From an uncultured Candidatus Saccharibacteria bacterium (GTDB taxonomy: Bacteria > Patescibacteriota > Minisyncoccia > JACQLN01), in NCBI GenBank assembly GCA_964526375.1, contig CAZGLK010000001.1:4811-68810 (forward strand): a stretch of 64,000 nt of DNA, in the 5' to 3' direction. Positions 25,969-55,417 of the stretch are shown piece by piece. Every line of letters starts with the position of its first letter. The stretch's first letter is position 1. The translations under genes and the position numbers were made by a program. Below the pieces are notes generated by a model. That model was not told the DNA's origin. It ran no database searches and saw only the letters and a program-made list of their open reading frames with translations.

Positions 25969-25973
25969 AACCA

Positions 25974-27458: not shown

Positions 27459-28850
27459 GTGTCCTCGCAAAGAAACAGACAAAGACCAGAAATTATGTTT
27501 AAGAAAACTATTTTCATAACGGCGTTTTTTAATCTGGCGGTCCGGAATATTTTAAGCACCGATTTTTTGGATATCCTAAAATCGAGAAAGGATTTGAGGG
27601 TAATTCTGCTTGTGCCGGAGGGAAGAAAATTCTTGTTTGAACGGGAGTTTGGAGAAACCAATGTAGTGGTGGAGGAAATCCCTTTCAGACGTATATCGCG
27701 ATTGAACCTCTTGTTTCATTTTTTGTCGTGGAATTTACTTAGCACGCACAGCAAGAAAATCCATCGTCTTGTTCAATTGCGCAAGGATAACAATTATTTG
27801 ATGTTCTGGCTGACCAGCCTTTTGGGGTTTTTGGGCAGATTCAACCCGACAAAAAAAGTGTTTAGGTGGCTGGATTATAATTTTTCCCCGCGGGATGTTT
27901 TTGATCCCTGGTTTGATAAATATAAACCCGACTTGGTTTTGGCCACAGACATTCAGGATTTAAGAGTTCAGGAATTAAGCGATACCGCCTTGGTGCGTGT
28001 GGCTAGAAACAAGGATGTGGCGAGCGTGGGCATGTCTCGCTCTTGGGATGCTATAACCACAAAAGGTTTGCTGCGAACTCTGCCCGATATCTTGGTGACC
28101 CAGAGCGAGAACATGAAAAAGATGGCGGTTTGTTATCATGGTTTGGACCCCGAAAGGGTTGCGGCGGTTGGTTTTCCTCATTACGACTCTTATGTTAAAG
28201 GTACCAGGATTGATCGCGGAGTTTTTTTTAAGAGATTGGAATTGAATCCCAACAAACGGCTGATATTTTTTGTCCCGCCAAGTGACCTTTGGACCGGTGA
28301 CAAATCGCTCAATTTTTATTTATTGCGGCTCCTGGCTGGTTTAGGTGAGCAGGTTGTGGTTCGGTTCCCTTTGTTTGGGGAGCTTGATATTGGCGACTTT
28401 GTTCCCCCAGGCTACATGATTTTTGACAAGCCCAGAAATGTTTCTCAACTGGAAGAATCATTTTTGAACAGGCAAGATGATGCTCATTTGGCTGATCTTA
28501 TCTATCACAGCGATGTTGTGCTGACCGGTCCATCAAGTATAATTTTGGATGCGGCTATTTTGGATAAACCGACTATCCTGCTTGGTTTTGATGGTGATAC
28601 AAGTAAACCTTACTGGAAGAGTTTAAGAAGGTATTATGATTATGAACATCAGCAGGTTGTTATTAATGGAGCCGGGACCAGAATTGCCACCAGCGGGGAA
28701 GAATTGATTGCTTATTTGCGGGTCTGTCTGAATAACCCCCAGCAGGGGTCGACATTTAGGCGCACGATTGCTCAAGAGGCCTGTTATAGTTTAGACGGAC
28801 AGTCGGGCGAGCGTTTGGCCAAGCTGGTTTTAAAAAGGTTGGACTTATGA
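27459..28850 (+). CDS. GT-B-fold transferase, TagB/TagF (CDP-glycerol glycerophosphotransferase) / KpsC-like family, paralog 1 of 5
   Basis: Shared family pattern: N-terminal …I(F/L)(S/T)… Rossmann, YKPDLVLATDI…, (M/I)(S/R)SWD(N/A)(I/L)T(S/T)KG…, GxPxxD(S/R)Y…, then a C-terminal …(I/L)(I/L)(Y/F)(S/A)P… and …SLDGQSGERLA. Confidence 0.6.
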   Translation: MSSQRNRQRPEIMFKKTIFITAFFNLAVRNILSTDFLDILKSRKDLRVILLVPEGRKFLFEREFGETNVVVEEIPFRRISRLNLLFHFLSWNLLSTHSKKIHRLVQLRKDNNYLMFWLTSLLGFLGRFNPTKKVFRWLDYNFSPRDVFDPWFDKYKPDLVLATDIQDLRVQELSDTALVRVARNKDVASVGMSRSWDAITTKGLLRTLPDILVTQSENMKKMAVCYHGLDPERVAAVGFPHYDSYVKGTRIDRGVFFKRLELNPNKRLIFFVPPSDLWTGDKSLNFYLLRLLAGLGEQVVVRFPLFGELDIGDFVPPGYMIFDKPRNVSQLEESFLNRQDDAHLADLIYHSDVVLTGPSSIILDAAILDKPTILLGFDGDTSKPYWKSLRRYYDYEHQQVVINGAGTRIATSGEELIAYLRVCLNNPQQGSTFRRTIAQEACYSLDGQSGERLAKLVLKRLDL

Positions 28851-29932
28851 AGATTTGTTACCTGAACCGCCATCTGCAGGACAATACCGGCGTGGGCGCT
28901 TTCTGTTTGTCGTTAACCAGGTCCATAGTCGGTATTAGATCCGATGTTTCTTATAATGTTTTGACCGGTGAGGATATTCTCTCGGGCGGTTTTTTTGGCT
29001 TGGTTTTCAATTTTTTTAAAATACGAAGGTTTTTTAGGCAATATGACATAATCCATGCTTTGGACGCATGGCCTTATGGGGTCATAGCTGCATTTTTTTC
29101 TTTGGGTCTTAAAAAAAGGGTTCTGATTACAGCGGTCGGCACGGGTGCGGTGGAGCCGTTATACCACACTTTAAAAAAGCAGTTGTTAATCTGGGCTTAC
29201 AGAAACGCCCATAGGGTTGTGGCGGTAAGCAGTAACACCAGATCCGAGATTTTGAAGGTGGTTCCTGATCTTAAAATTGATGTTATCAACCACGGAGTCG
29301 ATGTTTCCAAGTTCCCCGCCTCCGCCGACCCGCTTCGCCAGAGCTTCAGCGAGATTGAAAATCTCAGACCTTACATTTTGAGCGTTGGTTGGCTTAAACC
29401 AAGAAAGGGATTGATCTATTCTTTGAGAGCCTTTGCCCTGATTGCCCCTAAGTTTCAAGGGCTTCGCTACATGATTGTAGGCGAGGGTTTGGAATACGAA
29501 AACCTTGTAGCGGAGAGTATAAGATTGGGTGTTCATGATAAGGTAATCATACTCAAGAAAGTCTCGGAGGAATACTTGGCATCTTTGTATAAGGGCGCGG
29601 AGTTGTTTTTGTTGCTTCCCCAGAGCGACAGCAAAGATATCGAAGGATTTGGGCTTGTCTTTCTGGAGGCGGCCGCTTGCGGCCTGCCGGTGGTAGGAAC
29701 TTATAAAAGCGGGGCCGCAGACGCAATTTGGGAAGGCCACAACGGCTTTTTGGTAGAACCACGGGATCCTCAAGCCGCTGCCGAGGCCGTGTTGAAAATT
29801 TTGACGGATCACACTCTTAGGAATGAATTTTCTCGCAACTCTATTTTGTTTGCCCAAAAGATGAGTTGGGACAAAGCGGCCCGCCTGTATTTGGATGTTT
29901 ACGAGTCCCAGATCAAGCAAAAACAAACTTGA
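28847..29932 (+). CDS. GT4 glycosyltransferase
   Basis: …EGFGLVFLEAAACGLPVVGTYKSGA…. Confidence 0.8.
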   Translation: MKICYLNRHLQDNTGVGAFCLSLTRSIVGIRSDVSYNVLTGEDILSGGFFGLVFNFFKIRRFFRQYDIIHALDAWPYGVIAAFFSLGLKKRVLITAVGTGAVEPLYHTLKKQLLIWAYRNAHRVVAVSSNTRSEILKVVPDLKIDVINHGVDVSKFPASADPLRQSFSEIENLRPYILSVGWLKPRKGLIYSLRAFALIAPKFQGLRYMIVGEGLEYENLVAESIRLGVHDKVIILKKVSEEYLASLYKGAELFLLLPQSDSKDIEGFGLVFLEAAACGLPVVGTYKSGAADAIWEGHNGFLVEPRDPQAAAEAVLKILTDHTLRNEFSRNSILFAQKMSWDKAARLYLDVYESQIKQKQT

Positions 29933-30567
29933 TCGGCGAATAGATTGGGCCAGAAATATTTTAACAATCGCGTTCCAGAACTAACCTCCCTTTGGCTGAT
30001 CTTAAAACCTAGTTTTTGGGTTGCAGCTTCAAAGTCTTTTACGGAAAAAAAGCGCAGGTGTTCCCTTGGTTCAAGAATCCATTGTTTGGGGAATCGTCCT
30101 AAAATTAACAGCCGGAGACGATGTTTCCAGAGAGCGATATTAGGTATAGAAACCAGCACGGCTTTTTTGGTTACCCGCCGGGCTTCCAGCAGCAGTTCTT
30201 CCGGATTGGGGATGTGTTCTAATGTTTCGGAGATGATTGTAAAATCAAACTCGCCGTCGTTAAACGGCAACTTTTTAGCGGCATCATGTCTTTGGGCTGG
30301 TATCTTTCTTTCCCGGCAGATATTTAAGGCAGTTTCCGAGATATCCAGCCCCAAGGGCCGGATGTTCCGCTTGGAGGCAACGAGGTAACGGAGCAGGGAG
30401 CAATCGCCGCAGCCCACATCTAAAACCTTGGAGCCATCGGCTATCCATTGGGCGAATATCTTGTGCCGGGGGCGATAACCGGATTGACCTCGGTGCCGCC
30501 AGTAGCTTTCGTAGAATGGAGAGTTGGGGTCGTCCGTTTTTGTTTTTAGTAGAGTTTTTTCTTCCAA
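29899..30567 (-). CDS. class I SAM-dependent methyltransferase
   Basis: Motif I VLDVGCGDCSLL. Confidence 0.7.
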   Translation of the reverse strand: MEEKTLLKTKTDDPNSPFYESYWRHRGQSGYRPRHKIFAQWIADGSKVLDVGCGDCSLLRYLVASKRNIRPLGLDISETALNICRERKIPAQRHDAAKKLPFNDGEFDFTIISETLEHIPNPEELLLEARRVTKKAVLVSIPNIALWKHRLRLLILGRFPKQWILEPREHLRFFSVKDFEAATQKLGFKISQREVSSGTRLLKYFWPNLFADQVCFCLIWDS

Positions 30568-31589
30568 GTTTGAGGTATGTGTTTATGTTCCAATTCCAGG
30601 GAATCAAGATATTTAAATTTTTGCGGCCCTAACGTTTTGGCCCAGGCTATTGTCTTTTTAAGACCCGTCTCCAGGGAGGTTTGTTTTATATTGCCCAAGA
30701 GTTTTCTCATGGTCTCGTGGCTGGAATAAGCCAATTTGACTTCTTGGGGTCTGGACGGCAAATACTCTGGATTAAATTGCGGCGGCGCTTTTTTCCCAAA
30801 AAATTCTTTCAGGATGATATCTTTTAAGTGATTCAAGGTTACATTTTCGTTTGAGCCTACATTTATGGTGTTATTCTGGCACTTTTTGGAGAAGGCGGCT
30901 TTAACCATAGCCGTGGTGACATCGCTTATGTAACTAAAGGCCCGTTGTTGTAAGCCATCGCCGTAAATATAGAAGTTTTTGCCTTGCCCGAGTCTGTTTA
31001 TAAAAATACCGACGACATTGCGGTAAGGATCGCTAAGATTTTGTCTGGGCCCATAGACGTTGTGCGGCCTGATGATGACATACTTAAAACCATAGACTGT
31101 GGACATAATCCTGGTTACACTTTCCATGGCTGCTTTGGCCACACCATAGATGTCCTCTGGAGCAGGTGTCATGCTCTCTCTGAAAGGAACTTGTTGGTTG
31201 CCATAAACGCTCATGGAACTCACCAGTATTATCTTTTTAACGCCATTTTTTATGGCTGGCACCAGCAGGTTTAAATAGGCCAGCAGGTTTCTGTCCATGG
31301 CACTAAATGGGGTAAATTGGCTTCGCCCTTCTGTGGCATCGGCGGCTAAATGAAAGATTGTGTCTGGCTTAAGCTTATTAATGTATTCGGCCGTTTTTTC
31401 GCGGCGGCGTAGGTCCAATTTGGTAAAGTATTTCTTTTGGGAGACATTGCGCATAAAACCACCAGAAAGATCATCAACTCCGAAAACCTTGTATTTTTTA
31501 AGGTCATGGAGTCTATCGTAAATATGGCTGCCCATGAATCCGGCTGAGCCGGTTATCAGAATCTTTTGTTTTGGCATGGCACTGGTCAT
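30546..31589 (-). CDS. NAD-dependent epimerase/dehydratase family protein
   Basis: ILITGSAGFMGSH… YxxxK (YGVAKAA). Confidence 0.75.
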   Translation of the reverse strand: MTSAMPKQKILITGSAGFMGSHIYDRLHDLKKYKVFGVDDLSGGFMRNVSQKKYFTKLDLRRREKTAEYINKLKPDTIFHLAADATEGRSQFTPFSAMDRNLLAYLNLLVPAIKNGVKKIILVSSMSVYGNQQVPFRESMTPAPEDIYGVAKAAMESVTRIMSTVYGFKYVIIRPHNVYGPRQNLSDPYRNVVGIFINRLGQGKNFYIYGDGLQQRAFSYISDVTTAMVKAAFSKKCQNNTINVGSNENVTLNHLKDIILKEFFGKKAPPQFNPEYLPSRPQEVKLAYSSHETMRKLLGNIKQTSLETGLKKTIAWAKTLGPQKFKYLDSLELEHKHIPQTWKKKLY

Positions 31590-31596
31590 TATGACT

Positions 31597-32646
31597 CTAT
31601 TTGATTAAACACTTTAACATACTTTTCAGGTTTTTTCCAATCAACTCCGGCGTGGCGCTGGAAGTAAATTTCGCATGTCCCTGCCGGGCTATGGCCTGAC
31701 GCAACTCGGGGTTTCCCTTTAGAGTTATGATAGCCCGGGCTATTGATTCGGGATTGGCTATTGGCACGAGCATAAGTTCTGTTTCGTCAAACAGCTCTCG
31801 TATGGCCGGCGTGTCGGCGGTTATAACCGGTTTGCCCATAGCCAGGTATTCGTACACTTTGTTGGGAATTACCATTTTTGTTTTTGAGGTGTTGCCAAAG
31901 ATACCCAGGCAAATGTCCATTCTAGCTACCCATTGAGGTACTGCCTCTGCGGGTATTCTGACGTCGTGAAATTTAACATTATTAAGTTCTAAGCCCCGGG
32001 CTATTTTTTTGGCTAAGTTTAGCGTCTGGCCGTTACCCACCATCAGCAGTTCAAGGCTGGGGTCTTTGATTAAGCCTAAGGCTTGGATAATATATTCTAC
32101 CCCCTGTAAGGGCACGAACGTTCCCTGGAAACCAATGGTCGTCTTTTCGTTGACGAGGCCATCTTGGGGATAAAAGATGTCTGTATCCGCCCCAATCCAA
32201 ACTCGCGCGAATTTTGACGGAGGCTGGTGAAAAGTCCGACAAAAATATTTTATGTGTTCTTGGGTGTCCAGCAATACCAAATTGGCGACTCTGGCCGAGG
32301 CCCAATCCAGAAAATAGTTGTGGCAGGCTGTCCACGAGAGCTTGGCGTGCAGTTTTCTGTCTTCAACCACGGTGTTGTAAAGGGAATAGAAAGCGTCAAG
32401 TACTATGGGTTTTCTGGTTATGAGACGGGCGAATAGGGCCATGCCTTGGCCGGCAAATCCAACAATCATAATATCGTAGCTGTCTCTGATTCGCCGGTGT
32501 TTACGGAACAGACTAACGAGTTTTTTAAAACCGGCCGCTCTTTCGTGGCATTCAATAACATTCACTCCGTTTTTTCGGAGGCCTTTGATTATTATTCTGT
32601 TTCTGGAGTAATCTCGGTTATAGGAGCCGAAGTAGCAAATGGTCAT
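31597..32646 (-). CDS. GT4 glycosyltransferase
   Basis: …KVYEYLAMGKPVITADTPAIRELF…. Confidence 0.75.
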   Translation of the reverse strand: MTICYFGSYNRDYSRNRIIIKGLRKNGVNVIECHERAAGFKKLVSLFRKHRRIRDSYDIMIVGFAGQGMALFARLITRKPIVLDAFYSLYNTVVEDRKLHAKLSWTACHNYFLDWASARVANLVLLDTQEHIKYFCRTFHQPPSKFARVWIGADTDIFYPQDGLVNEKTTIGFQGTFVPLQGVEYIIQALGLIKDPSLELLMVGNGQTLNLAKKIARGLELNNVKFHDVRIPAEAVPQWVARMDICLGIFGNTSKTKMVIPNKVYEYLAMGKPVITADTPAIRELFDETELMLVPIANPESIARAIITLKGNPELRQAIARQGHAKFTSSATPELIGKNLKSMLKCLIK

Positions 32647-34541
32647 TTTTTAATTCGGTAGATTGCTACCGAAGGATTTTTATAAATTAAAGTCAAGTTT
32701 TCATCTAAATCCGAGCGGACGGAATTGATCTGCTGTTCCCACGGCCCATAGTAGGCATAATCGGCTGGCGAGCTTTTCCAATCAGTCTTGAGAAGGCGAT
32801 AACGTTCTATCAGTTCATCAAACTTTTGAAGCTTGGCTAGCTCAATCGCATCAGGCGCGTCGGAGTCAGCGCCCCTTAGGAAGTGGCGAAAATCGCCGTA
32901 TTTGCTGGCAAAATAGTTGCCATAGATATGCCAGACGCTATCATTTAAATTGCTGTCTTTGTCGGGGGGGCATTGGTATTCAAGGCATCCGATTGGGACT
33001 TTACGTTCAAGTCTCTGTCTTAAGATATCTTCGGGGACCTTGAATAATTTATGAGCAGTCAAATATCTTTCTTCTATTTCTTTCATGCTCAACAAAGTAG
33101 TGAAAGCGGTGGCTAGATATGGGCGGGCAGAAGTATAGGTGTTTAGATAAAAAGAGTTCATGCTTGAAGGAGAAAGCAACTTGGGCTCAGGCTCCAGATT
33201 ATTGTTTATCCACCCCCAGGAAGCGGTGATATCGTTGGGAAAAGCATAATACATTACCAGATGGGGCTGGATGCTTTTTTTAATCTCCAAAACATTTACT
33301 ATTTTTTTGGTAACGGTGGCAACACTTAGCAGGACCACCAATAAAACCACCATTTTTTTCAGATGGACATGGCGGTTTTGATATTTCTTGATTAGATCAT
33401 GAGCCAGGATAAACAGAATTATGAACATCGTGGGGCCAATGACCTTAAACCAGGTATGGGGCACGGGTACATAGCCGACTAGCAGCTGAATGTTCCAGAC
33501 CGTTATCATGGTGGCACACATTGACCATAGAAAGACGGCTTTTCTAGAATTTGCCCTGAAGCAAATAAAGTAAATGGCCGGTATCAATAGTAAATAAACC
33601 AAATAGTCCAATATGTTGGCCGAATTTATGCCAATAAATCTGCCTTGGGCCAGACCCAGGCGGAAGGTGTAGTCTTGACTGGCGGGGAGTTGAGAAAATT
33701 TAAAGTAGTTTACAAAGTAAGGTATGGCCATGACGGCCGTGGTTGCCGTCAGCAGGGCCAGGCTTTTTAGCTGGACGGCGTTTTTTCTTTCAAAGGCAAC
33801 GGCATAGCCGAAGAGAATGCCGATTAACACTACCCAGAAGACCCAGAGGTGGAAGTAAATGTAAAAAAGCAATCCAGCGAATAAACCGGCCAGGACGGCT
33901 TTTTTATAAGAAGGCTGTTTCCAAAATCTGTAGAGACTCCAGCAGGCCAACAGGTAAAATGGAACGGTCAAAAGAGGATTATCTATTTGAGCCAGATACA
34001 ATTTGTCAAATTGAGTTTTAACCACGGGGATAAAGTTTTTTACAAAGAAAGCCAAAAAATCATTCCAGCCACGCCAGTCATAAAAGGGCAGTTTGCCCGG
34101 TATGGGGGTGAGGGTTCCAGCCAGCGCCATTAAAACCGACCAGAGTCGGGATTCAAGGATAATTCTTCCGACTAGGTAGAACCCTGCAAAAGCTAGGGCA
34201 GAGAATATAAATTGGGTCAACAAATAGGCCGCATTCATATTCCCTTTGGTTATGAACATTGAGGCGGCAGATAGCGTAGAGGTCAGGGTGTTCATTACTG
34301 TCGGTTGTTCCCTGATGTCACCGGATAAGTCGGCGGGCGGGAAATTGCCGTCATAGATTTCTCGGGCGCGGGGCAGATAATGAAGCAGGCTATTACGGTA
34401 GGTTTTGAACTGGGCCAGCGTAAACTCTTCCCCCGATCTTTCAAAATATTCCTTGATCATTAAAGGCGGCCCAATATAAAGCGAACCTACCAGGATTGAT
34501 AGGCTGGCTATGATTATGATTTCGGTTGACTTGGTTGTCAT
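32643..34541 (-). CDS. large polytopic membrane protein (632 aa), candidate GT-C-fold glycosyltransferase/polymerase
   Basis: More than 12 predicted TM helices; adjacent (divergent) to a DPM1-like GT2, the classical polyprenyl-P-sugar synthase/GT-C pairing; paralog of the partial ORF at 63031. Confidence 0.55.
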   Translation of the reverse strand: MTTKSTEIIIIASLSILVGSLYIGPPLMIKEYFERSGEEFTLAQFKTYRNSLLHYLPRAREIYDGNFPPADLSGDIREQPTVMNTLTSTLSAASMFITKGNMNAAYLLTQFIFSALAFAGFYLVGRIILESRLWSVLMALAGTLTPIPGKLPFYDWRGWNDFLAFFVKNFIPVVKTQFDKLYLAQIDNPLLTVPFYLLACWSLYRFWKQPSYKKAVLAGLFAGLLFYIYFHLWVFWVVLIGILFGYAVAFERKNAVQLKSLALLTATTAVMAIPYFVNYFKFSQLPASQDYTFRLGLAQGRFIGINSANILDYLVYLLLIPAIYFICFRANSRKAVFLWSMCATMITVWNIQLLVGYVPVPHTWFKVIGPTMFIILFILAHDLIKKYQNRHVHLKKMVVLLVVLLSVATVTKKIVNVLEIKKSIQPHLVMYYAFPNDITASWGWINNNLEPEPKLLSPSSMNSFYLNTYTSARPYLATAFTTLLSMKEIEERYLTAHKLFKVPEDILRQRLERKVPIGCLEYQCPPDKDSNLNDSVWHIYGNYFASKYGDFRHFLRGADSDAPDAIELAKLQKFDELIERYRLLKTDWKSSPADYAYYGPWEQQINSVRSDLDENLTLIYKNPSVAIYRIKK

Positions 34542-41996: not shown

Positions 41997-42042
41997 CCAA
42001 AACAAAACTTGCCGGAAATGTGTTTTAATAGCAAGCCTTTTT

Positions 42043-43671: not shown

Positions 43672-43675
43672 CAGC

Positions 43676-43900
43676 ATGAGTATCGTCGAAGAGGTTTTGT
43701 GTAAAGTTATGGGGGTTGGGTCTGTTTCGGACAGCACCTCTCTCAAGGACATAGCCAGTTGGGATTCTTTTAATAGTTTGGTTTTGCTTAACGAGCTGGA
43801 GAGCCAATTTGAAGTTAGGTTTACTTTGGATGAGGCCACGAGCTTTAATAGCGTGGCTGACATTAAACGAATCCTCCAGCAACGCGGCATTAAGGTCTAA
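43676..43900 (+). CDS. acyl/peptidyl carrier protein, paralog 1 of 3
   Basis: 74 aa, phosphopantetheine Ser in the SWDSFNSL motif; paralogs at 55457 and 58643. Confidence 0.7.
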   Translation: MSIVEEVLCKVMGVGSVSDSTSLKDIASWDSFNSLVLLNELESQFEVRFTLDEATSFNSVADIKRILQQRGIKV

Positions 43901-43908
43901 AATACATT

Positions 43909-44607: not shown

Positions 44608-44611
44608 TTTG

Positions 44612-48290: not shown

Positions 48291-48293
48291 AAA

Positions 48294-49349: not shown

Positions 49350-51307
49350 GAGTTATTTTTTGGCTTAAAATAGAACCCAAAACGGTACAAACCGGATTTA
49401 AAATTGTTTTCTAAAAGGAATTGGGCGTATTTATTGGCCAGCATCATCTTTTTTTCAAGAAATTTTCGGTAATTGTTATTCATTTTTAGCGCTTGGGGTG
49501 CCGATAGTAGTTTTAATTGTTTGAGCATTTGGCGGCTCAAAGCTCCTGTTTGTTTACTATAGATTAAAAAGTGCGGCAATAATCTTGAGTCTACCGGCAC
49601 GACTACTTTTTCTAAGTTGGAGAAAGAGAGGGCAATATCGGGATCAATTTCAGACGCATTATTTGTGAAAAATATTTTCTGCCAAGCAAAGAGAGATAAC
49701 TTTGCGCAGACGTCGTGTTTTTGATTAAAAAATTTTTCCGTGAAAACATTCAAGGCTTCATAGCCGACGTATACGAGCCGCGTTATCAAGTGGCGCAGGT
49801 CTTGGCGGCCGCCCTTCAACCACAACAATCTTGCTTTAAGCACCTCCTCGGCGAAGCCGGCAAAATAGGGATCTCGTGTCAGTTGAGCGACTCTTTCGAG
49901 AACATAACAAAATGACCTTAAATACAGCAGGGAATTTCTAACATCCAAGGCCGGTTGTTTAAGCATACGCACCAGCCGAGCCAATCTTTCTGGCAACCAA
50001 TCTACCACGCTGGCTACCTCTCTTTGTTTAAGATCTCTTTTCCCAATCTTGTTTAGGGGAATATCTTCTCCCCAGAGTTTAGATAGATTTACCTCGTCAA
50101 AAAGTTTTATATCGGCAAAGTTTTTTTGGCTTATTACCATTAAAGTTCCTGTGGCTACCTGAGAGCCGTATGGGAATTTTTCCGGGGTGATGATATAATC
50201 AGCCGGTTGGGAAGATTTAAGGTTGCCCCGTGTTACCACTATCAGGTCTAAGTCGCTTATGCCAGGTGTTTGCACGCGCCCGTATTCATAAATTGCCGCC
50301 ACATCGCGGTTGTTTTTAAATTTCTTTACCAACTCTTGCCGCGCCTTTTCGTAGACGTTGATTAAAATTGGTCGGGGCTTGTTTTTGTATAAGACGTCTT
50401 GATGCCTTTGCGCCTTAAGGCCTTGTTTCATTTCCTCTATCATGTTTTTGGCTTGGGAAAGATAGTCACGACCCAAAAGCCGCCCCAATTTTTTTAGCGG
50501 TTTTTGGGAGAAGTTTTTTCGAACCAAGGTTGCTTTATCCAGAAGGGGATGGGTGTACAGTTTGAACGAATGTTTTTTGTATAGAATCGAGCCCCGAGCT
50601 TGAAGATAGAGCGCCGGCATTAAGAGCAGTACCGAAACAAAGTATTTAAGATCAAAAATGGTTACCGAGTTGGGATCAAACCTTTTTTTGTCCAGCAATA
50701 TGCGGGCGAACCTTTCAAAAACTTGTTTTTGTTCCGCTCGGGAGTCCCTCAAATGAAAAGTGATGCGGCTGGGACCGAGCAAAATTTTGGCGTTTCTAAA
50801 AACAGGTATGGGCATATAAGCGCTGCAGTAATAATCAAGGTCGGCTTCGTTGCAGCACAAAAAACCGTGGTGACTATTGGGGTCGATCTCTTTTAACAAG
50901 TTTCGGGCCAAGGCCAGTTTGGCTTTGAATTGTTTAAGTTTTTTGGGTTGGGCGCAGACGGCTTTTTTAACAAAGATATAAGTGTCAAGATCGCTGAAAC
51001 CAGGAGTATAGTCTAGAGTAGCCAAACTGCCGTGTATGAAGAAGTAAACCACAAAGGGTGTTAATTCCCCGCGAGCAAAGCTACTTAACCGTTTTAGCGT
51101 TTTGTGAAAAGCTGTACCCCGATACTTTTTTAGATCCAGCGGAGTTGTTTTAAGTGTAAGCCGGCTGGTTTGTTTTGATGTCTCAAAACCGCGGCCGAAC
51201 ATTTTTTGATAACCACGGGCTATTTTAAGAGCTAGTTTAGGATTATCATTTTCGGAGTTTAGGTAGCGGTTTAGGTTATAGTGAAGCTCGTTTTGTTCTT
51301 CCGTCAT
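49346..51307 (-). CDS. hypothetical 653-aa protein with two nucleotidyltransferase-fold-like motifs
   Basis: HGSLATLDYTPGFSDLDTYIFV (~aa 95) and YGRVQTPGISDLDLIVV (~aa 365) both fit the GS…DxD minimal NTase motif; sits in an operon with the CMP-sugar-acid synthetase. Confidence 0.45.
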   Translation of the reverse strand: MTEEQNELHYNLNRYLNSENDNPKLALKIARGYQKMFGRGFETSKQTSRLTLKTTPLDLKKYRGTAFHKTLKRLSSFARGELTPFVVYFFIHGSLATLDYTPGFSDLDTYIFVKKAVCAQPKKLKQFKAKLALARNLLKEIDPNSHHGFLCCNEADLDYYCSAYMPIPVFRNAKILLGPSRITFHLRDSRAEQKQVFERFARILLDKKRFDPNSVTIFDLKYFVSVLLLMPALYLQARGSILYKKHSFKLYTHPLLDKATLVRKNFSQKPLKKLGRLLGRDYLSQAKNMIEEMKQGLKAQRHQDVLYKNKPRPILINVYEKARQELVKKFKNNRDVAAIYEYGRVQTPGISDLDLIVVTRGNLKSSQPADYIITPEKFPYGSQVATGTLMVISQKNFADIKLFDEVNLSKLWGEDIPLNKIGKRDLKQREVASVVDWLPERLARLVRMLKQPALDVRNSLLYLRSFCYVLERVAQLTRDPYFAGFAEEVLKARLLWLKGGRQDLRHLITRLVYVGYEALNVFTEKFFNQKHDVCAKLSLFAWQKIFFTNNASEIDPDIALSFSNLEKVVVPVDSRLLPHFLIYSKQTGALSRQMLKQLKLLSAPQALKMNNNYRKFLEKKMMLANKYAQFLLENNFKSGLYRFGFYFKPKNNS

Positions 51308-52025
51308 ATTTTATGATAGTTTCAGCTACGACCAAGTCTTTGGGCGAATCAATGTCTACGGTTTTTTCCGGACTGACCACAAAACCACGGATGTCGGGGC
51401 CATAAACCCGATTTTTCTTTATGAACTTGGCTCGGGTGGCGTCTACCACTGCATTTTGCCAATAGACGGCTGGTAACCATTGGCGGGGTACATCCGTGCC
51501 CAAGGTTTTGAAATATTTTGTGGCCAGCAAAGGTTTAATTTTACCTTTTTTTTGATCAGCTAGTGTCCACATTTTGTAAGGATTGTATGGATTGGGTGGG
51601 GAAACTGTTCTAACCGAGTCGCAATTTTCTTTAGTCATAAAACTTACAACCTCGTCTATGTCTTTGGATGTTCTTAGGGGCGTGGTGGGTCTTAACAGCA
51701 CGATTATTTCGGGATGCCAATTCCTGTTTTTTTCCAACCAAACTAGGGCGTGTTTGAGGAATTGGATATCGGTGGCGTTGTCGCCAGAGATGTTCTTTGG
51801 TCTTAAAAAGGGCACATCTGCTCCCAGGGACCTAGCCACACCGGCTATTTTTTCGTCGTCGGTGCTAACAATAAAAGCGTCGAGTTGCCTCGATTCTTGT
51901 GCGGATTTTATGGTGTAGTATATCAAAGGTTTTCCGGCTAAAAGCGCTATGTTTTTGTGGGGGATGCCCTTGGAACCACCTCTGGCCGGGATGATGCCCA
52001 GCACTTTTATTTCTTTTTTTGACAT
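51276..52025 (-). CDS. CMP-sugar-acid synthetase (acylneuraminate cytidylyltransferase/NeuA/KdsB family)
   Basis: …LGIIPARGGSKGIPHKNIALLAGKPLIYYTI…. Confidence 0.8.
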   Translation of the reverse strand: MSKKEIKVLGIIPARGGSKGIPHKNIALLAGKPLIYYTIKSAQESRQLDAFIVSTDDEKIAGVARSLGADVPFLRPKNISGDNATDIQFLKHALVWLEKNRNWHPEIIVLLRPTTPLRTSKDIDEVVSFMTKENCDSVRTVSPPNPYNPYKMWTLADQKKGKIKPLLATKYFKTLGTDVPRQWLPAVYWQNAVVDATRAKFIKKNRVYGPDIRGFVVSPEKTVDIDSPKDLVVAETIIKYDGRTKRASL

Positions 52026-52069
52026 TTGCTTATTATTGCATTTTTATATATAGTTATCAATACTTCAAG

Positions 52070-52588
52070 ATTATGGATTCAAAACTGAAAAATAGATTCT
52101 CTAATGTAAAACTTCTGGTTTCTGACTTTGACGGCGTAATGACAGACGGCTATGTTTACTTGGATGAGAACGGCCGGGAGTCGGTTAAGTGCAGCCGCAA
52201 GGACGGTTTGGGTGTGGAACTTCTTAAAAACGCTGGTGTAGAAGTAATGGTTTTGTCCAAGGAAAATAACTCGGTGGTTAAAGCCAGGTGCCGCAAACTG
52301 AAAATAAAATGCCGGCAGGGAATCTCCAGCGGGGCTGGCAAGGTTGGTATTTTAAAGGAAATACTTAAGGCGAAAAATCTTGATAATAAGTCAAGTTGCT
52401 ATATTGGTGACGATATCAATGATGTCGCTGCCATAAAATACGCGGCTGTGGGTGTTGCCGTGGCCGACAGCCACCCGCTGGTTAAAAAAGCGGCCGACTA
52501 TATCACCAAGGCCCGGGGTGGTCACCATGCCGTCAGAGAACTGGCGGAATTGATATTGGAGTCTCAAGGCACCGAGCTTAAGATTTAA
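52070..52588 (+). CDS. KdsC-type HAD phosphatase (sugar-acid phosphate phosphatase)
   Basis: VSDFDGVMTDG… GDDINDV…; the start is taken at MDSKLKN. Confidence 0.75.
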   Translation: MMDSKLKNRFSNVKLLVSDFDGVMTDGYVYLDENGRESVKCSRKDGLGVELLKNAGVEVMVLSKENNSVVKARCRKLKIKCRQGISSGAGKVGILKEILKAKNLDNKSSCYIGDDINDVAAIKYAAVGVAVADSHPLVKKAADYITKARGGHHAVRELAELILESQGTELKI

Positions 52589-52592
52589 AACC

Positions 52593-53942
52593 ATGGAAAC
52601 CATTTTTTTGTTTGTGGATAAAGATTTATTGATACGAGACCTGCTTACCGGCGATTTTTTGCCGTATCTTGCTTCCAAATTTCAAGCGGTAGTTTTTATG
52701 CAGGAGAAATCATATGCAAGAAACAAGGATTTTTTGTTTGCCGGGAGCGATCGTGTTGAATATAAAATCTGGCCGGTTTACAACAATAAATTTTTAGACT
52801 GGATGAAAGCGATTCGGAGCGTGTTCGTAAGGCAATTTGACCACCTGAACGTGCAGCAGTTCAAAAAAAGAAAGCTTCCCGGAACTAAATTCAATCGCTG
52901 GCTGCTGCCATTGGCTAGCGCCGGCCGTCGTTTTTTTACCCTGAAGTTTTTTAAGTCTTTAGAAAAACAGCTTCTTTCCGGTAAATCAAAGGAGATTTTT
53001 AGAGGTTATGTTAACAAATACCGTCCCAGTTGCGTTGTAACCGCGTCTTGCGGCATTATGAATTTTGAGGCCGAAGGGTTGCTGTTGGCGGAATTTTTTG
53101 GTATCCCCACGGTAGCCGTTAACTTTAATTGGGACAATTTGACGTCTAAAGTGCGAAGCTTAAGGTTGCCGGATAAATTGGTTGTTTGGAATGAACCAAT
53201 CAAGAATGTCGCTTTGGAGATGCATGGGTATGAAGCTAATGAAGTGTTTGTTTCGGGGATTATCAGGTTTGATCCCTATTTTAACAAGAGTGCTCCCGAG
53301 TTGCCCGGTCGGGAGGGGTTTTTAAGGTCTAAAGGATTGGATCCCAACAATAAAACGATTGTCTATGCCAGCACGGCTGATTTTGTGTATCCTTTTCAAA
53401 AGGAATTGATAAGTCTGCTGATTGAATTGAGGGATCAAGGCAAACTTTTGGGCCAGCCCAATATCTTTGTTCGTCTCCATTACAAGGATCCAATAGACGG
53501 CTACCGCCGTTTTTTAAACCAGCCCAATGTTTACATAGAAAAATATGAATCTACTTCCTTGGAGCGGGATGGTTTGAATTTGAAGGCGACCCTGCTGTAC
53601 GGTGATGTCCATTTAAATTATGCGTCCACTGTCTCTTTAGATGTCTGTGCCCTAAACCGGCCGCTTATTAATTTGGCCTTTCCGGCCGATGTTGTGGCAA
53701 GATTCCCCAATCAGGATTTTCCGCATTACCGGCCTTTAGTGGAAACCGGCGCGGCGCGGCTGGCTCGCGACCCGATTGAACTGGTTAATCTGATCAACGG
53801 TTATTTTCTTAATCCCGACTTAGATTCAGAAAAACGTGGGGAAATTGCCGCAAATTTGGTTTGTAACGCGGACGGTCTGGCCCATAAGCGGGTTGTGGAT
53901 TTTCTTGTAAATATGGCCGCCGGCAGCTCCAAGAAGGATTGA
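52593..53942 (+). CDS. GT-B-fold transferase, TagF/KpsC-like family, paralog 4 of 5
   Basis: …NFNWDNLTSKVRSL… IIRFDPYF… KTIVYAST…. Confidence 0.6.
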   Translation: METIFLFVDKDLLIRDLLTGDFLPYLASKFQAVVFMQEKSYARNKDFLFAGSDRVEYKIWPVYNNKFLDWMKAIRSVFVRQFDHLNVQQFKKRKLPGTKFNRWLLPLASAGRRFFTLKFFKSLEKQLLSGKSKEIFRGYVNKYRPSCVVTASCGIMNFEAEGLLLAEFFGIPTVAVNFNWDNLTSKVRSLRLPDKLVVWNEPIKNVALEMHGYEANEVFVSGIIRFDPYFNKSAPELPGREGFLRSKGLDPNNKTIVYASTADFVYPFQKELISLLIELRDQGKLLGQPNIFVRLHYKDPIDGYRRFLNQPNVYIEKYESTSLERDGLNLKATLLYGDVHLNYASTVSLDVCALNRPLINLAFPADVVARFPNQDFPHYRPLVETGAARLARDPIELVNLINGYFLNPDLDSEKRGEIAANLVCNADGLAHKRVVDFLVNMAAGSSKKD

Positions 53943-55417
53943 AGCTCCCCGCCCCAAGTGTGAGTTTCACTGGCCCATGGCGCGATTTGGTTACAATTAA
54001 GTTGGCAGCGGAGTTATTAAGTTATGACGGCATGAAGACCATTCTGATCAGTATTTTACAGGGCATTGAAGCCAAAAATATTTTAAGAACTGAGATTTGC
54101 AAAACGCTCTTGGCAACACCCGACATAAGGCTTGTTTTTTTGGTTGGCACCAAGGACAAATTGGATTATTATGGCCGGGAGTTTACGCATCCCAGGATGA
54201 TCTACGAGCTGGTTTTGCCCGTTAAGGTTTCAAGGTGGGATCGTTTTTTGGGTTTCTTAAAATTTAAGCTGATTAACACCGAGACCATAGATTTAAGAAG
54301 AAAACTGGCAGCTAAAGACAATCGCGTCAGTTTTTTTCTGTACCCGTTCATTTTTTTGTTTAATAGAATTTTTGCCCGAAGAATTTTTAGAAAATTTGTT
54401 AGGCAGTTAGACCAGAGCTTGGCCCCGAGTGCCGATTTTTCCTGTCTTTTTGACAAGTATAATGTTGCCGCGGTTTTCCTGGCTCATCTTTTTGACGATA
54501 CGGAGGCCGCTTTGCTGCGCGAGGCGAAGCGAAGGGGAATTGTAAATGTGGGGCTTATAAATTCTTGGGACAAATTAACAGCCCGGTGCATGTTGAGGGT
54601 GTTGCCGGACAAATTGCTGGTTTACAACGATATCGTGAAAAAAGAGGCTGTTGAGTATGCCGATATGCCGCCGGAGAACGTTGTAGCGGTTGGCGTGCCG
54701 CATTATGATCAGTATTTTACCGATAAACCCCCTTCGCTCGATGAATTTTATAAGAGGGCGAACATTGATTCTAAAAAAAGGATTATTCTTTATTCTCCCA
54801 TAGGCAAGTATTTTAGCGACTCGGATTGGGATATAATAGATTTACTCAACGGTTTTACGGAAAACGAGCTAAGGAGTTATAATGTAGAATTGCTGGTTAG
54901 ATTTCAGCCCAATGATTTTGTCAGTGAGATTGAAATCAAGAAAAGGCCTTGGCTTAAATACGATCTGCCCGGCATTAGATTTTCCAATAAGCGCGGGGTT
55001 GACTGGGATATGAATTTTGCGGATCTAAAAAATCTGTTTGACACTCTGTATTACTGTTCACTCCTGGTTTGTTACGCGGCCAGTATAACCGTTGAGGCTG
55101 CTATTTTGGGCAAGCCGGTTATAAATATAAATTTTGAGGTTAAAGACAAGCAAAAACATTCCCAAACGCCAACCTATTTTTACGGCATGAGCCACTATCG
55201 CAAGGTTTTAGCAACCGGCGGCATCCGTTTGGTTAATAGTAAAGAGGAGTTGTTGAAATGGATTAAAATATATTTGGATCAGCCCGAAATTGATGCTGAC
55301 GGCAGATCTAGACTTGTCAGCGAGCAGTGTTGGAGACAAGACGGCCGGGCCGGGCAAAGGATTGCGGGGTTTTTAATAAGCGAAATTGGTTCAAACCGAG
55401 ACGGTGCGGTGGCTTAA
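53939..55417 (+). CDS. GT-B-fold transferase, TagF/KpsC-like family, paralog 5 of 5
   Basis: …LINSWDKLTARCMLRV… GVPHYDQYF… RIILYSPIGKYF… RQDGRAGQR. Confidence 0.6.
   Translation: MKLPAPSVSFTGPWRDLVTIKLAAELLSYDGMKTILISILQGIEAKNILRTEICKTLLATPDIRLVFLVGTKDKLDYYGREFTHPRMIYELVLPVKVSRWDRFLGFLKFKLINTETIDLRRKLAAKDNRVSFFLYPFIFLFNRIFARRIFRKFVRQLDQSLAPSADFSCLFDKYNVAAVFLAHLFDDTEAALLREAKRRGIVNVGLINSWDKLTARCMLRVLPDKLLVYNDIVKKEAVEYADMPPENVVAVGVPHYDQYFTDKPPSLDEFYKRANIDSKKRIILYSPIGKYFSDSDWDIIDLLNGFTENELRSYNVELLVRFQPNDFVSEIEIKKRPWLKYDLPGIRFSNKRGVDWDMNFADLKNLFDTLYYCSLLVCYAASITVEAAILGKPVININFEVKDKQKHSQTPTYFYGMSHYRKVLATGGIRLVNSKEELLKWIKIYLDQPEIDADGRSRLVSEQCWRQDGRAGQRIAGFLISEIGSNRDGAVA

What the first reader, a model, noticed from the sequence alone, without database searches (positions are those of the whole stretch)
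27459..55417. Five paralogs of one ~450-aa GT-B transferase family (TagF/KpsC-like) in a single locus
Seen in sequence: ORFs at 27459, 38562, 45089, 52593 and 53939 share the order KPD-L-V-x-A-T-D, then (I/M)(R/S)SWDN(I/L)T(S/T)K, then GxPxxD(R/Q/S)Y(F), then a (I/L)(I/V)(L/F)(Y/F)(S/A)(P/T) block, then a C-terminal (L/Q)DG(Q/R)(S/A)G(E/Q/R)R. This architecture recalls MurG-type GT-B and, through the ILYAPT-like block, the CDP-glycerol/ribitol glycerophosphotransferase (TagB/TagF) polymerase family. Five copies next to CMP-sugar-acid and dTDP-sugar pathways suggest a multi-step assembly of a teichoic-acid- or capsule-like phosphodiester or Kdo-type polymer, for which no model exists in CPR-like bacteria.
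Basis: partly seen in the sequence, partly recalled or inferred. Interest (0 to 1): 0.65.

Follow-up and report, generated by a model that had tools for sequence, protein, structure and literature searches.

The report
Five TagF-like transferase paralogs, Parcubacteria glycan locus
A groundwater Parcubacteria genome carries five old, diverged copies of an uncharacterised ~450-residue membrane-associated transferase, related to teichoic-acid polymerases but lacking their catalytic histidine, which most likely add sialic-acid-like sugars (not glycerol phosphate) to a cell-surface glycan.

Summary
Five ORFs at the stated coordinates are homologous (22-35% identity, BLASTP E 1e-12 to 1e-84) and share the listed motifs.

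They have a GT-B fold (AF2 pLDDT 95). All hit PF04464, four above its threshold. The profile matches TarL-like enzymes (hhalign 99.4%, E 2e-21). None hits KpsC/PF05159.

They are not recent in-situ duplicates. Each has closer orthologues in other Patescibacteria, and the family has at least 2,772 clusters at 50% identity.

They are also not typical TagF enzymes:
- The TarL/TagF catalytic W-H is an invariant W-D.
- APTFRG is lost.
- The KxHP histidine survives only in copies 2 and 4.
- No CDP-glycerol or CDP-ribitol supply gene was found in the window or in about 1 Mb of related loci.

The best curated match, including the N-domain, is the BFO_1060/Tanf_01245 family, the genetically implicated pseudaminic/legionaminic-acid transferases of Tannerella. 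CMP-nonulosonate synthetase, NeuB and NeuC recur nearby, and one orthologue is fused to the synthetase.

Best reading, at about 0.5: these are CMP-releasing nonulosonic-acid transferases, clearest for copies 3-5. This is a new variant of a known kind, of moderate interest.

The parts
27459..28850 (+). PAR1: family member of group 1. Probable true start is ATG 27495 (451 aa). It sits in the conserved core module TPR-GT4x2-GT4-GT4-Wzx-PAR1-GT4.
   Evidence: (PF04464 E 3.8e-13).
38562..39935 (+). PAR2: family member of group 2. It keeps the His at the TarL KxHP position (IRPHIL). An orthologue, P0084, is fused to a CMP-nonulosonate synthetase.
   Evidence: (BFO_1060 E 2e-17, N-domain 136-259).
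45089..46465 (+). PAR3: family member of group 1, immediately upstream of NeuB. AF2 model m620e7eaef4c0 has pLDDT 95.3 and a GT-B fold.
   Evidence: PAR3-like members have a NulO gene within 10 kb in 23 of 38 cases.
52593..53942 (+). PAR4: family member of group 2. It keeps the His at the KxHP position (VRLHYK). It lies directly after the KdsC-like phosphatase.
53939..55417 (+). PAR5: family member of group 1. Probable true start is ATG 54032 (461 aa).
   Evidence: PAR5-like members have a NulO gene within 10 kb in 14 of 21 cases.
46535..47542 (+). NeuB-family nonulosonate (9-phosphate?) synthase. It is an atypical form with no SAF domain.
   Evidence: PF03102 E 1.6e-72. TIGR03569 scores 244 bits, below its cutoff of 399.
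47535..49349 (+). SDR (47535-48290) and GFO/IDH/MocA oxidoreductase (48294-49349) inside the NulO module.
51276..52025 (-). CMP-nonulosonate synthetase (PF02348, closest to PseF). It is the only cytidylyltransferase found in the window.
   Evidence: E 1.3e-20. PseF model 143.9 bits versus KdsB models at 58 bits or less.
52019..52588 (+). HAD phosphatase similar to KdsC and KDN-9-P phosphatase. It implies a phosphorylated ulosonate intermediate.
   Evidence: PRK09484 E 1.6e-40, KDN-9-P phosphatase E 1.4e-28; both are below their cutoffs.
49346..51307 (-). 653-aa protein with a weak Pol-beta nucleotidyltransferase signature, apparently co-transcribed with the CMP synthetase. Role unknown.
   Evidence: Homologues occur in only 2 of 67 loci.
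21387..27449 (+). Core glycan module upstream of PAR1: fused double GT4 (21387-23741), GT4 (23738-24895), GT4 (24874-25968) and a Wzx-like flippase (25974-27449).
   Evidence: The module is conserved next to PAR1 orthologues in 7-10 of 14 loci.
28847..34541 (.). GT4 (28847-29932, +); MetW-like methyltransferase (29899-30567, -); epimerase/dehydratase (30546-31589, -); GT4 (31597-32646, -); 632-aa PMT_2-like polytopic protein (32643-34541, -), likely a GT-C-type glycan transferase.
   Evidence: The PMT_2-like cluster occurs in 20 of 67 loci.
34669..38541 (+). GT2, sugar C-methyltransferase, NDP-hexose 4,6-dehydratase-like and RmlD-like reductase. This is the deoxy-sugar module just upstream of PAR2.
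39928..45064 (+). Modification genes between PAR2 and PAR3: GNAT-like 370 aa, polysaccharide deacetylase, FkbH-domain protein, TylF-type O-methyltransferase and a GNAT.
   Evidence: FkbH TIGR01686 E 3.7e-84.

Best explanation
The five ORFs are anciently diverged paralogues. They belong to a large, uncharacterised branch of the TagB/TagF (PF04464) GT-B superfamily that is almost entirely confined to Patescibacteria.

Each is a cytoplasmic enzyme of about 450 residues. It likely docks on the membrane through an ~83-residue cationic helical insert in the N-domain. It binds a cytidine-nucleotide-activated donor in a TarL-like C-domain. It uses an invariant Trp-Asp loop, where TarL/TagF have Trp-His, to activate an acceptor hydroxyl on a lipid-linked glycan, releasing CMP.

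The most likely donor is the CMP-nonulosonic acid made by the adjacent module of NeuB, phosphatase and CMP synthetase. This applies at least to par3, par4 and par5. The chemistry would then be sialyltransferase-like glycosyl transfer, not glycerol- or ribitol-phosphate transfer.

The different paralogues would supply different acceptor or linkage specificities while GT4 and GT2 enzymes build the glycan. The glycan would then be flipped by the Wzx-like protein and delivered by the PMT_2-like membrane protein.

Shown here: homology, fold, motif substitutions, genomic association and the fusion. Inferred: the donor identity, the catalytic role of the Asp, the membrane docking and the order of assembly.
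For: 1. Fold and superfamily.
- The AF2 model has pLDDT 95.3.
- PF04464 hits all five copies.
- hhalign of the family against TarL-like proteins gives probability 99.4%, E 2e-21.

2. The closest curated family is NF046086 BFO_1060.
- Scores are E 2e-17 for par2 and 1e-15 for par4, and up to 4e-22 over nearly the full length for P0084.
- Genuine TarL-like controls hit TarL/TarF/TarB at 1e-27 to 1e-130, and three of the four match BFO_1060 only through the C-domain; P0182 also matches part of the N-domain.
- BFO_1060 is the strain FDC 92A2 homologue, aligned in that paper with Tanf_01245 and TFUB4_00887. Those are 445- and 442-aa proteins whose knock-outs lose the terminal Pse/Leg derivative. 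Their genes lie next to the CMP-NulO locus, in one strain separated from it only by a methyltransferase (PMC5420450).

3. Catalytic set.
- TarL-like proteins have invariant QxWHAxGAFK, APTFRG and KxHP. H300 is the residue mutated in the TarL-CDP-ribitol structure 8va1.
- The family has W-D in 115 of 115 members and in 141-143 of 144 independent representatives.
- The W-D lies in the loop after the topologically equivalent strand (secondary-structure order).
- APTFRG is not conserved.
- His at the HP position is present only in par2 and par4, and in 22-31% of the family.

4. Genomic context.
- The only recurrent nucleotidyltransferase near family members in 67 GTDB loci is PF02348 CMP-ulosonate synthetase (26 loci). 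NeuB occurs in 21 loci and NeuC-type Epimerase_2 in 18.
- No TagD/IspD-type cluster was found, and TagD/TarI queries gave no tblastn hit.
- In the window, par3 abuts NeuB, and par4 and par5 follow the phosphatase and CMP synthetase.

5. Fusion. P0084 is a par2-type domain fused to a PseF-like CMP synthetase.

6. Membrane association. The insert has net charge +8 to +16 and contains no transmembrane segment.
Against: - No biochemical data exist for any member of this branch.
- BFO_1060 scores (32-79 bits) are far below that model's cutoff of 200, so this is a sister group, not that family.
- The evidence for Tanf_01245 itself is genetic, not enzymatic.
- Only about half of related loci have a NulO gene within 10 kb. 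Close PAR1 orthologues have none in 0 of 14 loci.
- PAR2 sits next to dTDP-sugar genes.
- Methyltransferases (49 of 67 loci) and GT4s are equally frequent or more frequent neighbours, so the association may reflect membership of a general glycan locus.
- The window has one CMP synthetase for five transferases.
- The WH-to-WD equivalence rests on the order of secondary-structure elements. No coordinates were available for superposition, and hhalign chose a different register in that segment, one that is inconsistent with the secondary structure.
- An Asp could also serve as base in phosphodiester formation.
Confidence: 0.5

Rival explanations
1. These are classical TagF/TarL-type polyol-phosphate transferases. 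They would use CDP-glycerol or CDP-ribitol to build a teichoic-acid-like phosphodiester polymer.
For: - PF04464 hits are above the gathering score for 4 of 5 copies.
- hhalign to TarL-like proteins gives 99.4%.
- C-domain motifs are shared: a basic residue before the HP position, the (T/S)S, KP and R-x-Y-Y motifs, and DGxS.
- NCBI names the proteins 'CDP-glycerol glycerophosphotransferase family protein'.
- There are weak TarF/TarB hits for par1.
- Par2 and par4 retain the HP-position histidine.
Against: - The catalytic W-H is replaced by an invariant W-D.
- APTFRG is lost, and the HP histidine is absent in par1, par3 and par5.
- TarL/TarF/TarB model scores are 27 bits or less for the window copies, against cutoffs of 500-1000. 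True TarL-like controls score 96-437 bits on the same models, also below those equivalog cutoffs.
- The N-domain profile finds no TagF or TarL in the PDB.
- No glycerol-3-P or ribitol-5-P cytidylyltransferase is in the 64-kb window or in about 1 Mb of related loci.
- The fusion partner is a CMP-ulosonate synthetase, not TagD.
Confidence: 0.15
2. These are general-purpose GT-B glycosyltransferases of Patescibacteria. Different subfamilies would use different nucleotide sugars, for example dTDP-deoxyhexose for PAR2 or NDP-heptose elsewhere, and only some would use CMP-NulO.
For: - The family is the most abundant transferase in these loci: 119 members in 66 loci, against 77 GT4s in 33 loci.
- Half of the loci show no NulO gene within 10 kb.
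- PAR2 directly follows RmlB/RmlD-like genes.
- L002 has three members among heptose-pathway genes.
- PAR1-like members pair with methyltransferases in 28 of 39 cases.
- Other fusions are with a methyltransferase and with a deacetylase.
Against: - To my knowledge (not tested here), no member of the PF04464/BFO_1060 superfamily is known to use an NDP-sugar.
- The conserved C-domain is closest to cytidine-nucleotide enzymes.
- These super-loci exceed 60 kb, so a 10-kb radius under-counts NulO genes. PAR1 in this window is 17 kb from NeuB.
Confidence: 0.25
3. These are NDP-sugar 2-epimerase-like (NeuC/WecB-like) enzymes, or non-catalytic relatives, rather than transferases.
For: - hhalign of the family against Patescibacteria NeuC-like proteins gives 97.9%, E 3e-13, and covers the N-domain.
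- The C-terminal DGxS(G/S)ER motif is shared.
- One source (JGI) names a homologue an epimerase.
Against: - There is no PF02350 hit at E<=1 for any of the five copies.
- In the hhalign alignment the epimerase HxEGG glutamate falls in a 5-residue deletion, and the HP(V)T histidine is not conserved.
- The sequence match to TarL-like proteins is stronger (E 2e-21 against 3e-13).
- The cationic membrane-binding insert fits a lipid-linked acceptor.
- Many loci carry a bona fide NeuC in addition.
- Five epimerases in one locus, and tandem double-domain forms, have no rationale.
Confidence: 0.03

Closest known systems
BFO_1060 / Tanf_01245 / TFUB4_00887 family (NCBIfam NF046086): pseudaminic- and legionaminic-acid-derivative transferases of the Tannerella forsythia protein O-glycan
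   Same: - It is the best-scoring curated family for all five copies and for their orthologues. The matches include the N-domain with the W-D region.
- The proteins are a similar size (445 aa against about 450 aa).
- The genes lie next to CMP-nonulosonate biosynthesis genes, with methyltransferases nearby.
- CDD describes the Tannerella proteins as TagB-superfamily/GT-B.
   Different: - Scores are 32-79 bits against a cutoff of 200, so this is a distinct sister branch.
- The host is Patescibacteria, not Bacteroidota.
- There are several paralogues per locus, plus tandem-fused forms.
- The D/E-D/E-G and HP motifs reported for the Tannerella enzymes could not be compared, because no Tannerella sequence was obtainable.
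TagF/TarL/TagB CDP-polyol phosphotransferases (Pfam PF04464; PDB 3l7i, 8va1)
   Same: - Homologous C-domain: a basic residue at the KxHP lysine position, SS/(A/S)T, KP, R-x-(F/Y)-Y and DGxS.
- The likely leaving group is CMP.
- Peripheral membrane association.

   Different: - W-H is replaced by W-D.
- APTFRG is lost.
- The HP histidine is absent in 3 of 5 copies.
- The family has its own nearly invariant H390 in the motif RRYYDYEH.
- An 83-residue helical insert replaces the short crossover.
- There is no CDP-polyol pathway nearby.

UDP-GlcNAc 2-epimerase / NeuC family (Pfam PF02350; PDB 5zlr, 1f6d)
   Same: - There is significant profile similarity over both domains.
- The PD(L/I)V...D strand and the C-terminal DGxSxxR(I/L) helix are shared.

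   Different: - The epimerase catalytic Glu (HxEGG) and the HP histidine are missing.
- There is no Pfam hit.
- The family has a membrane-binding insert.
- The family sits between Epimerase_2 and TarL-like proteins, which do not detect each other (hhalign 2%).
Bacterial GT-B sialyltransferases and polysialyltransferases (for example SiaD, PDB 5wc6) and Kdo transferases (WaaA 2xci; KpsC/KpsS PF05159)
   Same: They would use the same class of donor (CMP-ulosonic acid) and a carboxylate general base, if the proposed function is right. That inference draws on general knowledge of GT38, GT52 and GT80 enzymes.
   Different: - There is no sequence hit.
- PF05159 is absent.

Membership tests
Pfam PF04464 Glyphos_transf (TagB/TagF/TarL) | The HMM score reaches the gathering threshold of 22.1 bits. 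| tested here: met
   par1 49.6, par2 27.4, par4 22.9 and par5 30.5 bits are above threshold. Par3 at 21.4 bits is just below. Only the C-terminal two thirds of the model is matched.
Pfam PF04464 Glyphos_transf (TagB/TagF/TarL) | An N-domain catalytic histidine in Q-x-W-H-(A/G) (TarL H300, TagF H444). | tested here: not met
   The motif is invariant in 28 TarL-like sequences. The family has W-D in 115 of 115 and 141-143 of 144 sequences. Equivalence is inferred from the identical order of secondary-structure elements in two AF2 models, not from a 3D superposition.
Pfam PF04464 Glyphos_transf (TagB/TagF/TarL) | The C-domain K-x-H-P histidine and the A-P-T-F-R-G motif. | tested here: not met
   HMM and hhalign alignments put R-x-(P/P/Q) in par1, par3 and par5 and R-x-H in par2 and par4. 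APTFRG aligns to the variable segments FVPPSD, FATKPR, FSPFGQ, YASTAD and YSPIGK.
Pfam PF04464 Glyphos_transf (TagB/TagF/TarL) | A CDP-glycerol or CDP-ribitol supply (TagD, TarI/TarJ) encoded with the transferase. | tested here: not met
   None was found among the ORFs of at least 120-150 aa scanned across the window. Most shorter ORFs, the size of TagD (~130 aa), were not Pfam-scanned. None was found among the annotated neighbour clusters, each seen in at least 4 of the 67 loci. The rest of the genome was not available.
NCBIfam TarB / TarF / TarL equivalogs | The score reaches the curated cutoff (500-1000 bits). | tested here: not met
   The window copies score 27 bits or less. TarL-like controls score 96-437 bits on the same models, well above the family although also below those cutoffs.
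NCBIfam NF046086 BFO_1060 family glycosyltransferase (Tannerella NulO transferases) | The score reaches the curated cutoff of 200 bits. | tested here: not met
   The window copies score 32-63 bits and orthologues up to 78.9 bits. It is the best curated hit, but the proteins are not members.
NCBIfam NF046086 BFO_1060 family glycosyltransferase (Tannerella NulO transferases) | The gene lies next to CMP-nonulosonate biosynthesis genes. | tested here: met
   In the window, par3 abuts NeuB, and par4 and par5 are adjacent to the phosphatase and CMP synthetase. Across 67 loci, the CMP synthetase occurs in 26, NeuB in 21-23 and NeuC in 18. This does not hold for close PAR1 orthologues (0 of 14).
NCBIfam NF046086 BFO_1060 family glycosyltransferase (Tannerella NulO transferases) | Loss of the terminal nonulosonic acid on knock-out, or CMP-NulO transfer activity. 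| not testable with these tools
   This needs genetics or biochemistry. For Tanf_01245 only knock-out evidence is reported (PMC5420450).
Pfam PF05159 Capsule_synth (KpsC/KpsS beta-Kdo transferases) | An HMM match. | tested here: not met
   [not shown]
Pfam PF02350 Epimerase_2 (UDP-GlcNAc 2-epimerase / NeuC) | An HMM match, plus the catalytic acidic residues (HxEGG Glu and the D/E of the following helix) and the HP histidine. | tested here: not met
   [not shown]

The most novel reading that the evidence does not exclude
The five genes represent a very large family, at least 2,700 clusters at 50% identity, that is essentially specific to Patescibacteria. In this reading the family consists of CMP-nonulosonate (sialic-acid-like) transferases that arose between the NeuC-epimerase and TagF lineages by a His-to-Asp switch of the catalytic base. 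Its many paralogues and tandem-fused forms would build multi- or poly-nonulosonate surface glycans on ultrasmall episymbiotic bacteria. Current databases would then mis-name thousands of them as CDP-glycerol glycerophosphotransferases.
Probability: 0.3. Interest if true: 0.75.

Novelty: new variant of a known kind. Interest (0 to 1): 0.55.

Why it matters
Almost nothing is known about the cell-surface chemistry of Candidate Phyla Radiation bacteria, although their lifestyle depends on attaching to host cells. No paper in the searchable library mentions nonulosonic acids together with Patescibacteria.

If this family transfers sialic-acid-like sugars, several things follow:
- It would more than double the known sequence space of nonulosonate transferases, for which few enzymes are characterised.
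- It would explain the large glycan super-loci of Parcubacteria.
- It would correct a systematic annotation error ('CDP-glycerol glycerophosphotransferase').
- It would give a clear evolutionary bridge between NDP-sugar 2-epimerases, teichoic-acid polymerases and CMP-sugar transferases.

If the proteins turn out to be ordinary polyol-phosphate transferases with an Asp base, the result is a modest variant of TagF chemistry and would point to teichoic-acid-like polymers in CPR bacteria.

Tried and rejected
1. KpsC/KpsS likeness: no PF05159 hit. Rejected.

2. In-situ duplication: rejected. BLAST classification and an NJ tree show that the nearest neighbours of each copy come from other genomes.

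3. Residue-level mapping of TarL H300.
- A profile of the N-domain alone found no TagF or TarL in the PDB.
- hhalign aligned the TarL LIQVWHA strand to a family helix. That register contradicts the AF2 secondary structures.
- I therefore used the order of secondary-structure elements. No tool gave coordinates or residue-level structural alignments.

4. The search for related loci with the broad alignments A2 and A1 failed because no stretch was conserved enough. The narrower alignment A3 worked, but it biases the 67 loci toward group-1 members.

5. The afdb50 fold library was unavailable.

6. No BFO_1060/Tanf_01245 sequence could be obtained, so its motif at the W-D position is unknown.

8. 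PADLOC and PHROGs scans were not run. Nothing in the locus suggests defence or phage genes.

9. Only one CMP-synthetase fusion was found among the fetched loci, so the fusion argument rests on a single protein.

Full report
OBSERVATION

The five ORFs exist at the stated coordinates, all on the + strand. They align end to end (A1).
- Pairwise BLASTP identities are 22-35%, with E-values from 9e-12 to 7e-84. The paralogy is certain.
The residues invariant in all five copies are W180-D181, G222, D227/Y229, R291, H390, D439-G440 and R445, in par3 numbering.
- Two mechanical starts are probably too early. Par1 likely begins at ATG 27495, matching the 451-aa NCBI protein P0001. Par5 likely begins at ATG 54032, where its orthologues begin.
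- The copies form two groups, {par1, par3, par5} and {par2, par4}.

ORGANISM AND DISTRIBUTION

P0001 and P0002 are 100% identical to proteins of a 'Parcubacteria group bacterium' MAG, and P0002's contig belongs to GCA_016204085.1.

An exhaustive profile search found 2,772 clusters at 50% identity with E<=1e-30. A scan of one genome per GTDB species returned 67 loci. Almost all were Patescibacteria, with on average 1.8 family members per locus and up to four.

Each window copy has closer relatives in other genomes than in its own locus:
- par1: 55-60% identity
- par5: about 50%
- par3: about 48%
- par2: 41-47%, plus one at 84%

In an NJ tree the copies lie in separate clades. Par2 and par4 share a small clade but are no closer to each other than to outside members. 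These are therefore old subfamilies, not in-situ duplicates.

FOLD AND FAMILY

AF2 with a 115-sequence alignment gives pLDDT 95.3 and a two-Rossmann GT-B fold. An ~83-residue helical insertion lies in the N-domain.

These are, and Foldseek agrees.

By sequence, all five copies hit PF04464, four above the gathering score. None hits PF05159 or PF02350.

Profile-profile comparison gives 99.4% (E 2e-21) to a TarL-like alignment and 97.9% (E 3e-13) to the NeuC-like epimerases of the same phylum. TarL-like proteins and epimerases do not detect each other. The family therefore lies between these two known families.

CATALYTIC RESIDUES

Twenty-eight TarL-like proteins have these invariant motifs:
- QxWHAxGAFK, whose His is TarL H300, the residue mutated in 8va1
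- GxPRxD
- APTFRG
- KxHP
- TDYSS
- RDFY
- DGxS

In the window family the following are kept: GxPxxD, a basic residue at the Lys position, (A/S)(S/T), KP, R-Y-Y and DGxS.

The following differ:
- APTFRG is not conserved.
- The HP histidine is present only in par2 (IRPHIL) and par4 (VRLHYK). It is present in 22-31% of the family overall.

AF2 secondary structures of par3 and of a TarL-like protein show the same order of elements between the 'DD/TD' strand and GxP. TarL's W-H lies two to three residues after a strand, and the family's W-D lies four to five residues after the equivalent strand. Both precede a short helix. I therefore read W-D as the counterpart of W-H. This is an inference from topology. 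hhalign chose another register there, one that pairs a strand with a helix.

W-D is invariant in 115 of 115 sequences and in 141-143 of 144 independent representatives.

Against the epimerases, the HxEGG glutamate falls in a deletion and the HP histidine is not conserved. The Asp of W-D aligns with the epimerase (I)D(E) carboxylate. The proteins therefore lack both the TagF histidine set and the full epimerase set.

CLOSEST NAMED RELATIVE

In NCBIfam the best model for every copy and every orthologue is NF046086, 'BFO_1060 family glycosyltransferase'.
- Scores are 32-79 bits against a cutoff of 200.
- Matches include the N-domain, and for P0084 and P0009 nearly the whole length.
- TarB, TarF and TarL models give 27 bits or less.
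- Genuine TarL-like controls behave in the opposite way. They hit TarL/TarF/TarB at E 1e-27 to 1e-130, and three of the four match BFO_1060 only through the C-domain; P0182 also matches part of the N-domain.

BFO_1060 is the strain FDC 92A2 homologue, aligned in the same paper with Tanf_01245 and TFUB4_00887. These are 445- and 442-aa proteins of Tannerella forsythia. Their knock-outs lose the terminal pseudaminic- or legionaminic-acid derivative of the protein O-glycan. Their genes lie beside the CMP-NulO locus, and in one strain only a methyltransferase separates them from it. CDD calls them TagB-superfamily (PMC5420450).

GENOMIC CONTEXT

The window from 20 to 63 kb is one glycan super-locus. 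In order it contains:
- TPR, GT4x2, GT4, GT4, Wzx-like flippase, PAR1, GT4
- on the reverse strand: methyltransferase, epimerase, GT4 and a 632-aa PMT_2-like membrane protein
- GT2, sugar C-methyltransferase, 4,6-dehydratase, RmlD-like reductase, PAR2
- GNAT, deacetylase, FkbH, O-methyltransferase, GNAT, PAR3
- NeuB, SDR, GFO oxidoreductase
- on the reverse strand: a 653-aa NTase-like protein and a PseF-like CMP synthetase
- KdsC/KDN-9-P-phosphatase-like HAD, PAR4, PAR5
- MaoC, SDR, acyl-CoA ligase and others

The only cytidylyltransferase is of the NeuA/PseF type: 144 bits on the PseF model against 58 bits or less on KdsB models.

Unsupervised clustering of neighbours across the 67 loci gave these counts:
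- SAM methyltransferases: 49 loci
- GT4: 33 loci
- PF02348 CMP synthetase: 26 loci
- Wzx-like: 22 loci
- NeuB: 21 loci
- GT2: 20 loci
- epimerase/dehydratases: 20 loci
- PMT_2-like: 20 loci
- NeuC-type Epimerase_2: 18 loci
- deacetylase: 17 loci

No TagD/IspD-type cluster appears among the annotated clusters, each seen in at least 4 loci.

The association depends on the subfamily. A NulO gene lies within 10 kb for:
- 23 of 38 par3-like members
- 14 of 21 par5-like members
- 7 of 19 par2-like members
- 14 of 39 par1-like members
- 0 of 14 close par1 orthologues

The close par1 orthologues instead conserve the GT4-Wzx core module and have a methyltransferase within 1 kb in 28 of 39 cases. Because these super-loci exceed 60 kb, the 10-kb radius under-counts.

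Fusions mirror the neighbourhood:
- P0084 is a par2-type domain fused to a PseF-like CMP synthetase.
- P0248 is fused to a methyltransferase.
- P0310 is fused to a deacetylase.
- Several proteins of about 900 aa are tandem double domains.

MECHANISM PROPOSED

The insert at residues 63-145 carries net charge +8 to +16, is rich in aromatic residues, and has no transmembrane segment. This fits a monotopic enzyme working on a lipid-linked acceptor at the cytoplasmic face, as TagF, TarL and MurG do.

The C-domain would bind the cytidine nucleotide. R291, H390, and H293 where present, are candidates for phosphate contact. D181 would deprotonate the acceptor hydroxyl.

Three observations point to a CMP-nonulosonic acid donor for par3-5, and probably for par2-type enzymes: the CMP-NulO module is adjacent, the closest curated relative is a NulO transferase family, and one orthologue is fused to the synthetase. 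That would be sialyltransferase-like chemistry on a TagF-like scaffold.

The presence of a KdsC-like phosphatase together with the absence of NeuC in this window suggests a Kdn/Neu-9-phosphate-type route. This is an inference.

The donors of par1 and par2 remain open.

RIVALS
- Classical polyol-phosphate transfer: about 0.15.
- NDP-sugar glycosyl transfer by some subfamilies: about 0.25.
- Epimerase-like function: about 0.03.

VERDICT

The proteins are a distinct and very large Patescibacteria branch of the TagF/BFO_1060 superfamily with a changed catalytic set. Databases currently name them glycerophosphotransferases.

This is a new variant of a known kind and is moderately interesting. It becomes more interesting if nonulosonate transfer is confirmed, because no paper in the searchable library links nonulosonic acids with Patescibacteria.

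Noticed in passing
window 46535-47542 (+): The NeuB homologue is atypical. The Pfam NeuB match starts only at residue 103, and the TIGR03569 match ends at profile position 278 of 329. The C-terminal SAF domain therefore seems absent and there is extra N-terminal sequence. It scores below the NeuB and PseI cutoffs. NeuB in other loci, for example L032, has the SAF domain.
   Followed up: partly
window 49346-51307 (-): A 653-aa ORF with only a weak Pol-beta/NTP_transf_2 nucleotidyltransferase signature overlaps the start of the CMP-NulO synthetase gene on the same strand. It has no NCBIfam hit, and homologues occur in only 2 of 67 related loci. It might be a second activation or modification enzyme.
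   Followed up: partly
window 32643-34541 (-); cluster 8 in 20 of 67 loci: A 632-aa polytopic protein with a weak PMT_2 (GT-C-like) match recurs next to family members. It is a candidate for transferring the finished glycan to protein or cell wall. In L020 (6176-8084) a par5-type ORF appears to read through into such a domain.
   Followed up: partly
P0241-P0246, P0248, P0310 (50%-identity representatives); L001 3478-5556: The family occurs as tandem double-domain proteins of about 900 aa. It also occurs fused to a methyltransferase, to a polysaccharide deacetylase and to a CMP-nonulosonate synthetase.
   Followed up: partly
L001 5553-6515, L003 12343-13293, L075 10546-11523, L076 2423-3376: A D-2-hydroxyacid dehydrogenase gene repeatedly sits beside par2-type family members and CMP synthetases (10 of 67 loci). 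Its role is unexplained. It might make a hydroxyacyl or glyceroyl substituent, or act on the keto-acid sugar.
   Followed up: no
window 39928-45064 and 55684-58627: There is a dense set of acyl- and methyl-modification genes: an FkbH-domain protein, three GNAT-like proteins, a polysaccharide deacetylase, a TylF O-methyltransferase, a MaoC dehydratase, an SDR and an acyl-CoA ligase. This suggests heavily N- or O-acylated and methylated sugars. FkbH recalls the glyceroyl group of Tannerella Pse5Am7Gra.
   Followed up: no
67 GTDB loci (L005-L071): SAM-dependent methyltransferases are the commonest neighbours of the family: 84 genes in 49 loci. They lie within 1 kb of 28 of 39 par1-like members.
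   Followed up: partly
window 16453-20337 (+): A 1,294-aa protein with an N-terminal peptidoglycan-binding domain (PG_binding_1) lies immediately upstream of the glycan locus. It is a possible wall-anchored surface protein and glycosylation target.
   Followed up: no
window 43909-44607 and 44435-45064 (+): The mechanical ORFs for the TylF methyltransferase and the following GNAT overlap by about 170 nt. The TTG start of the GNAT is probably wrong, and the real start is further downstream.
   Followed up: no
window 1-16000: The upstream region is ordinary housekeeping. It holds EF-P, ComEC-like competence protein, a metallo-beta-lactamase fold protein, an adenylate-kinase-like protein, an HhH-GPD glycosylase, MurD-like ligase, tRNA-His (12133-12205, -), tRNA-Arg (12675-12747, +) and ClpB.
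   Followed up: yes
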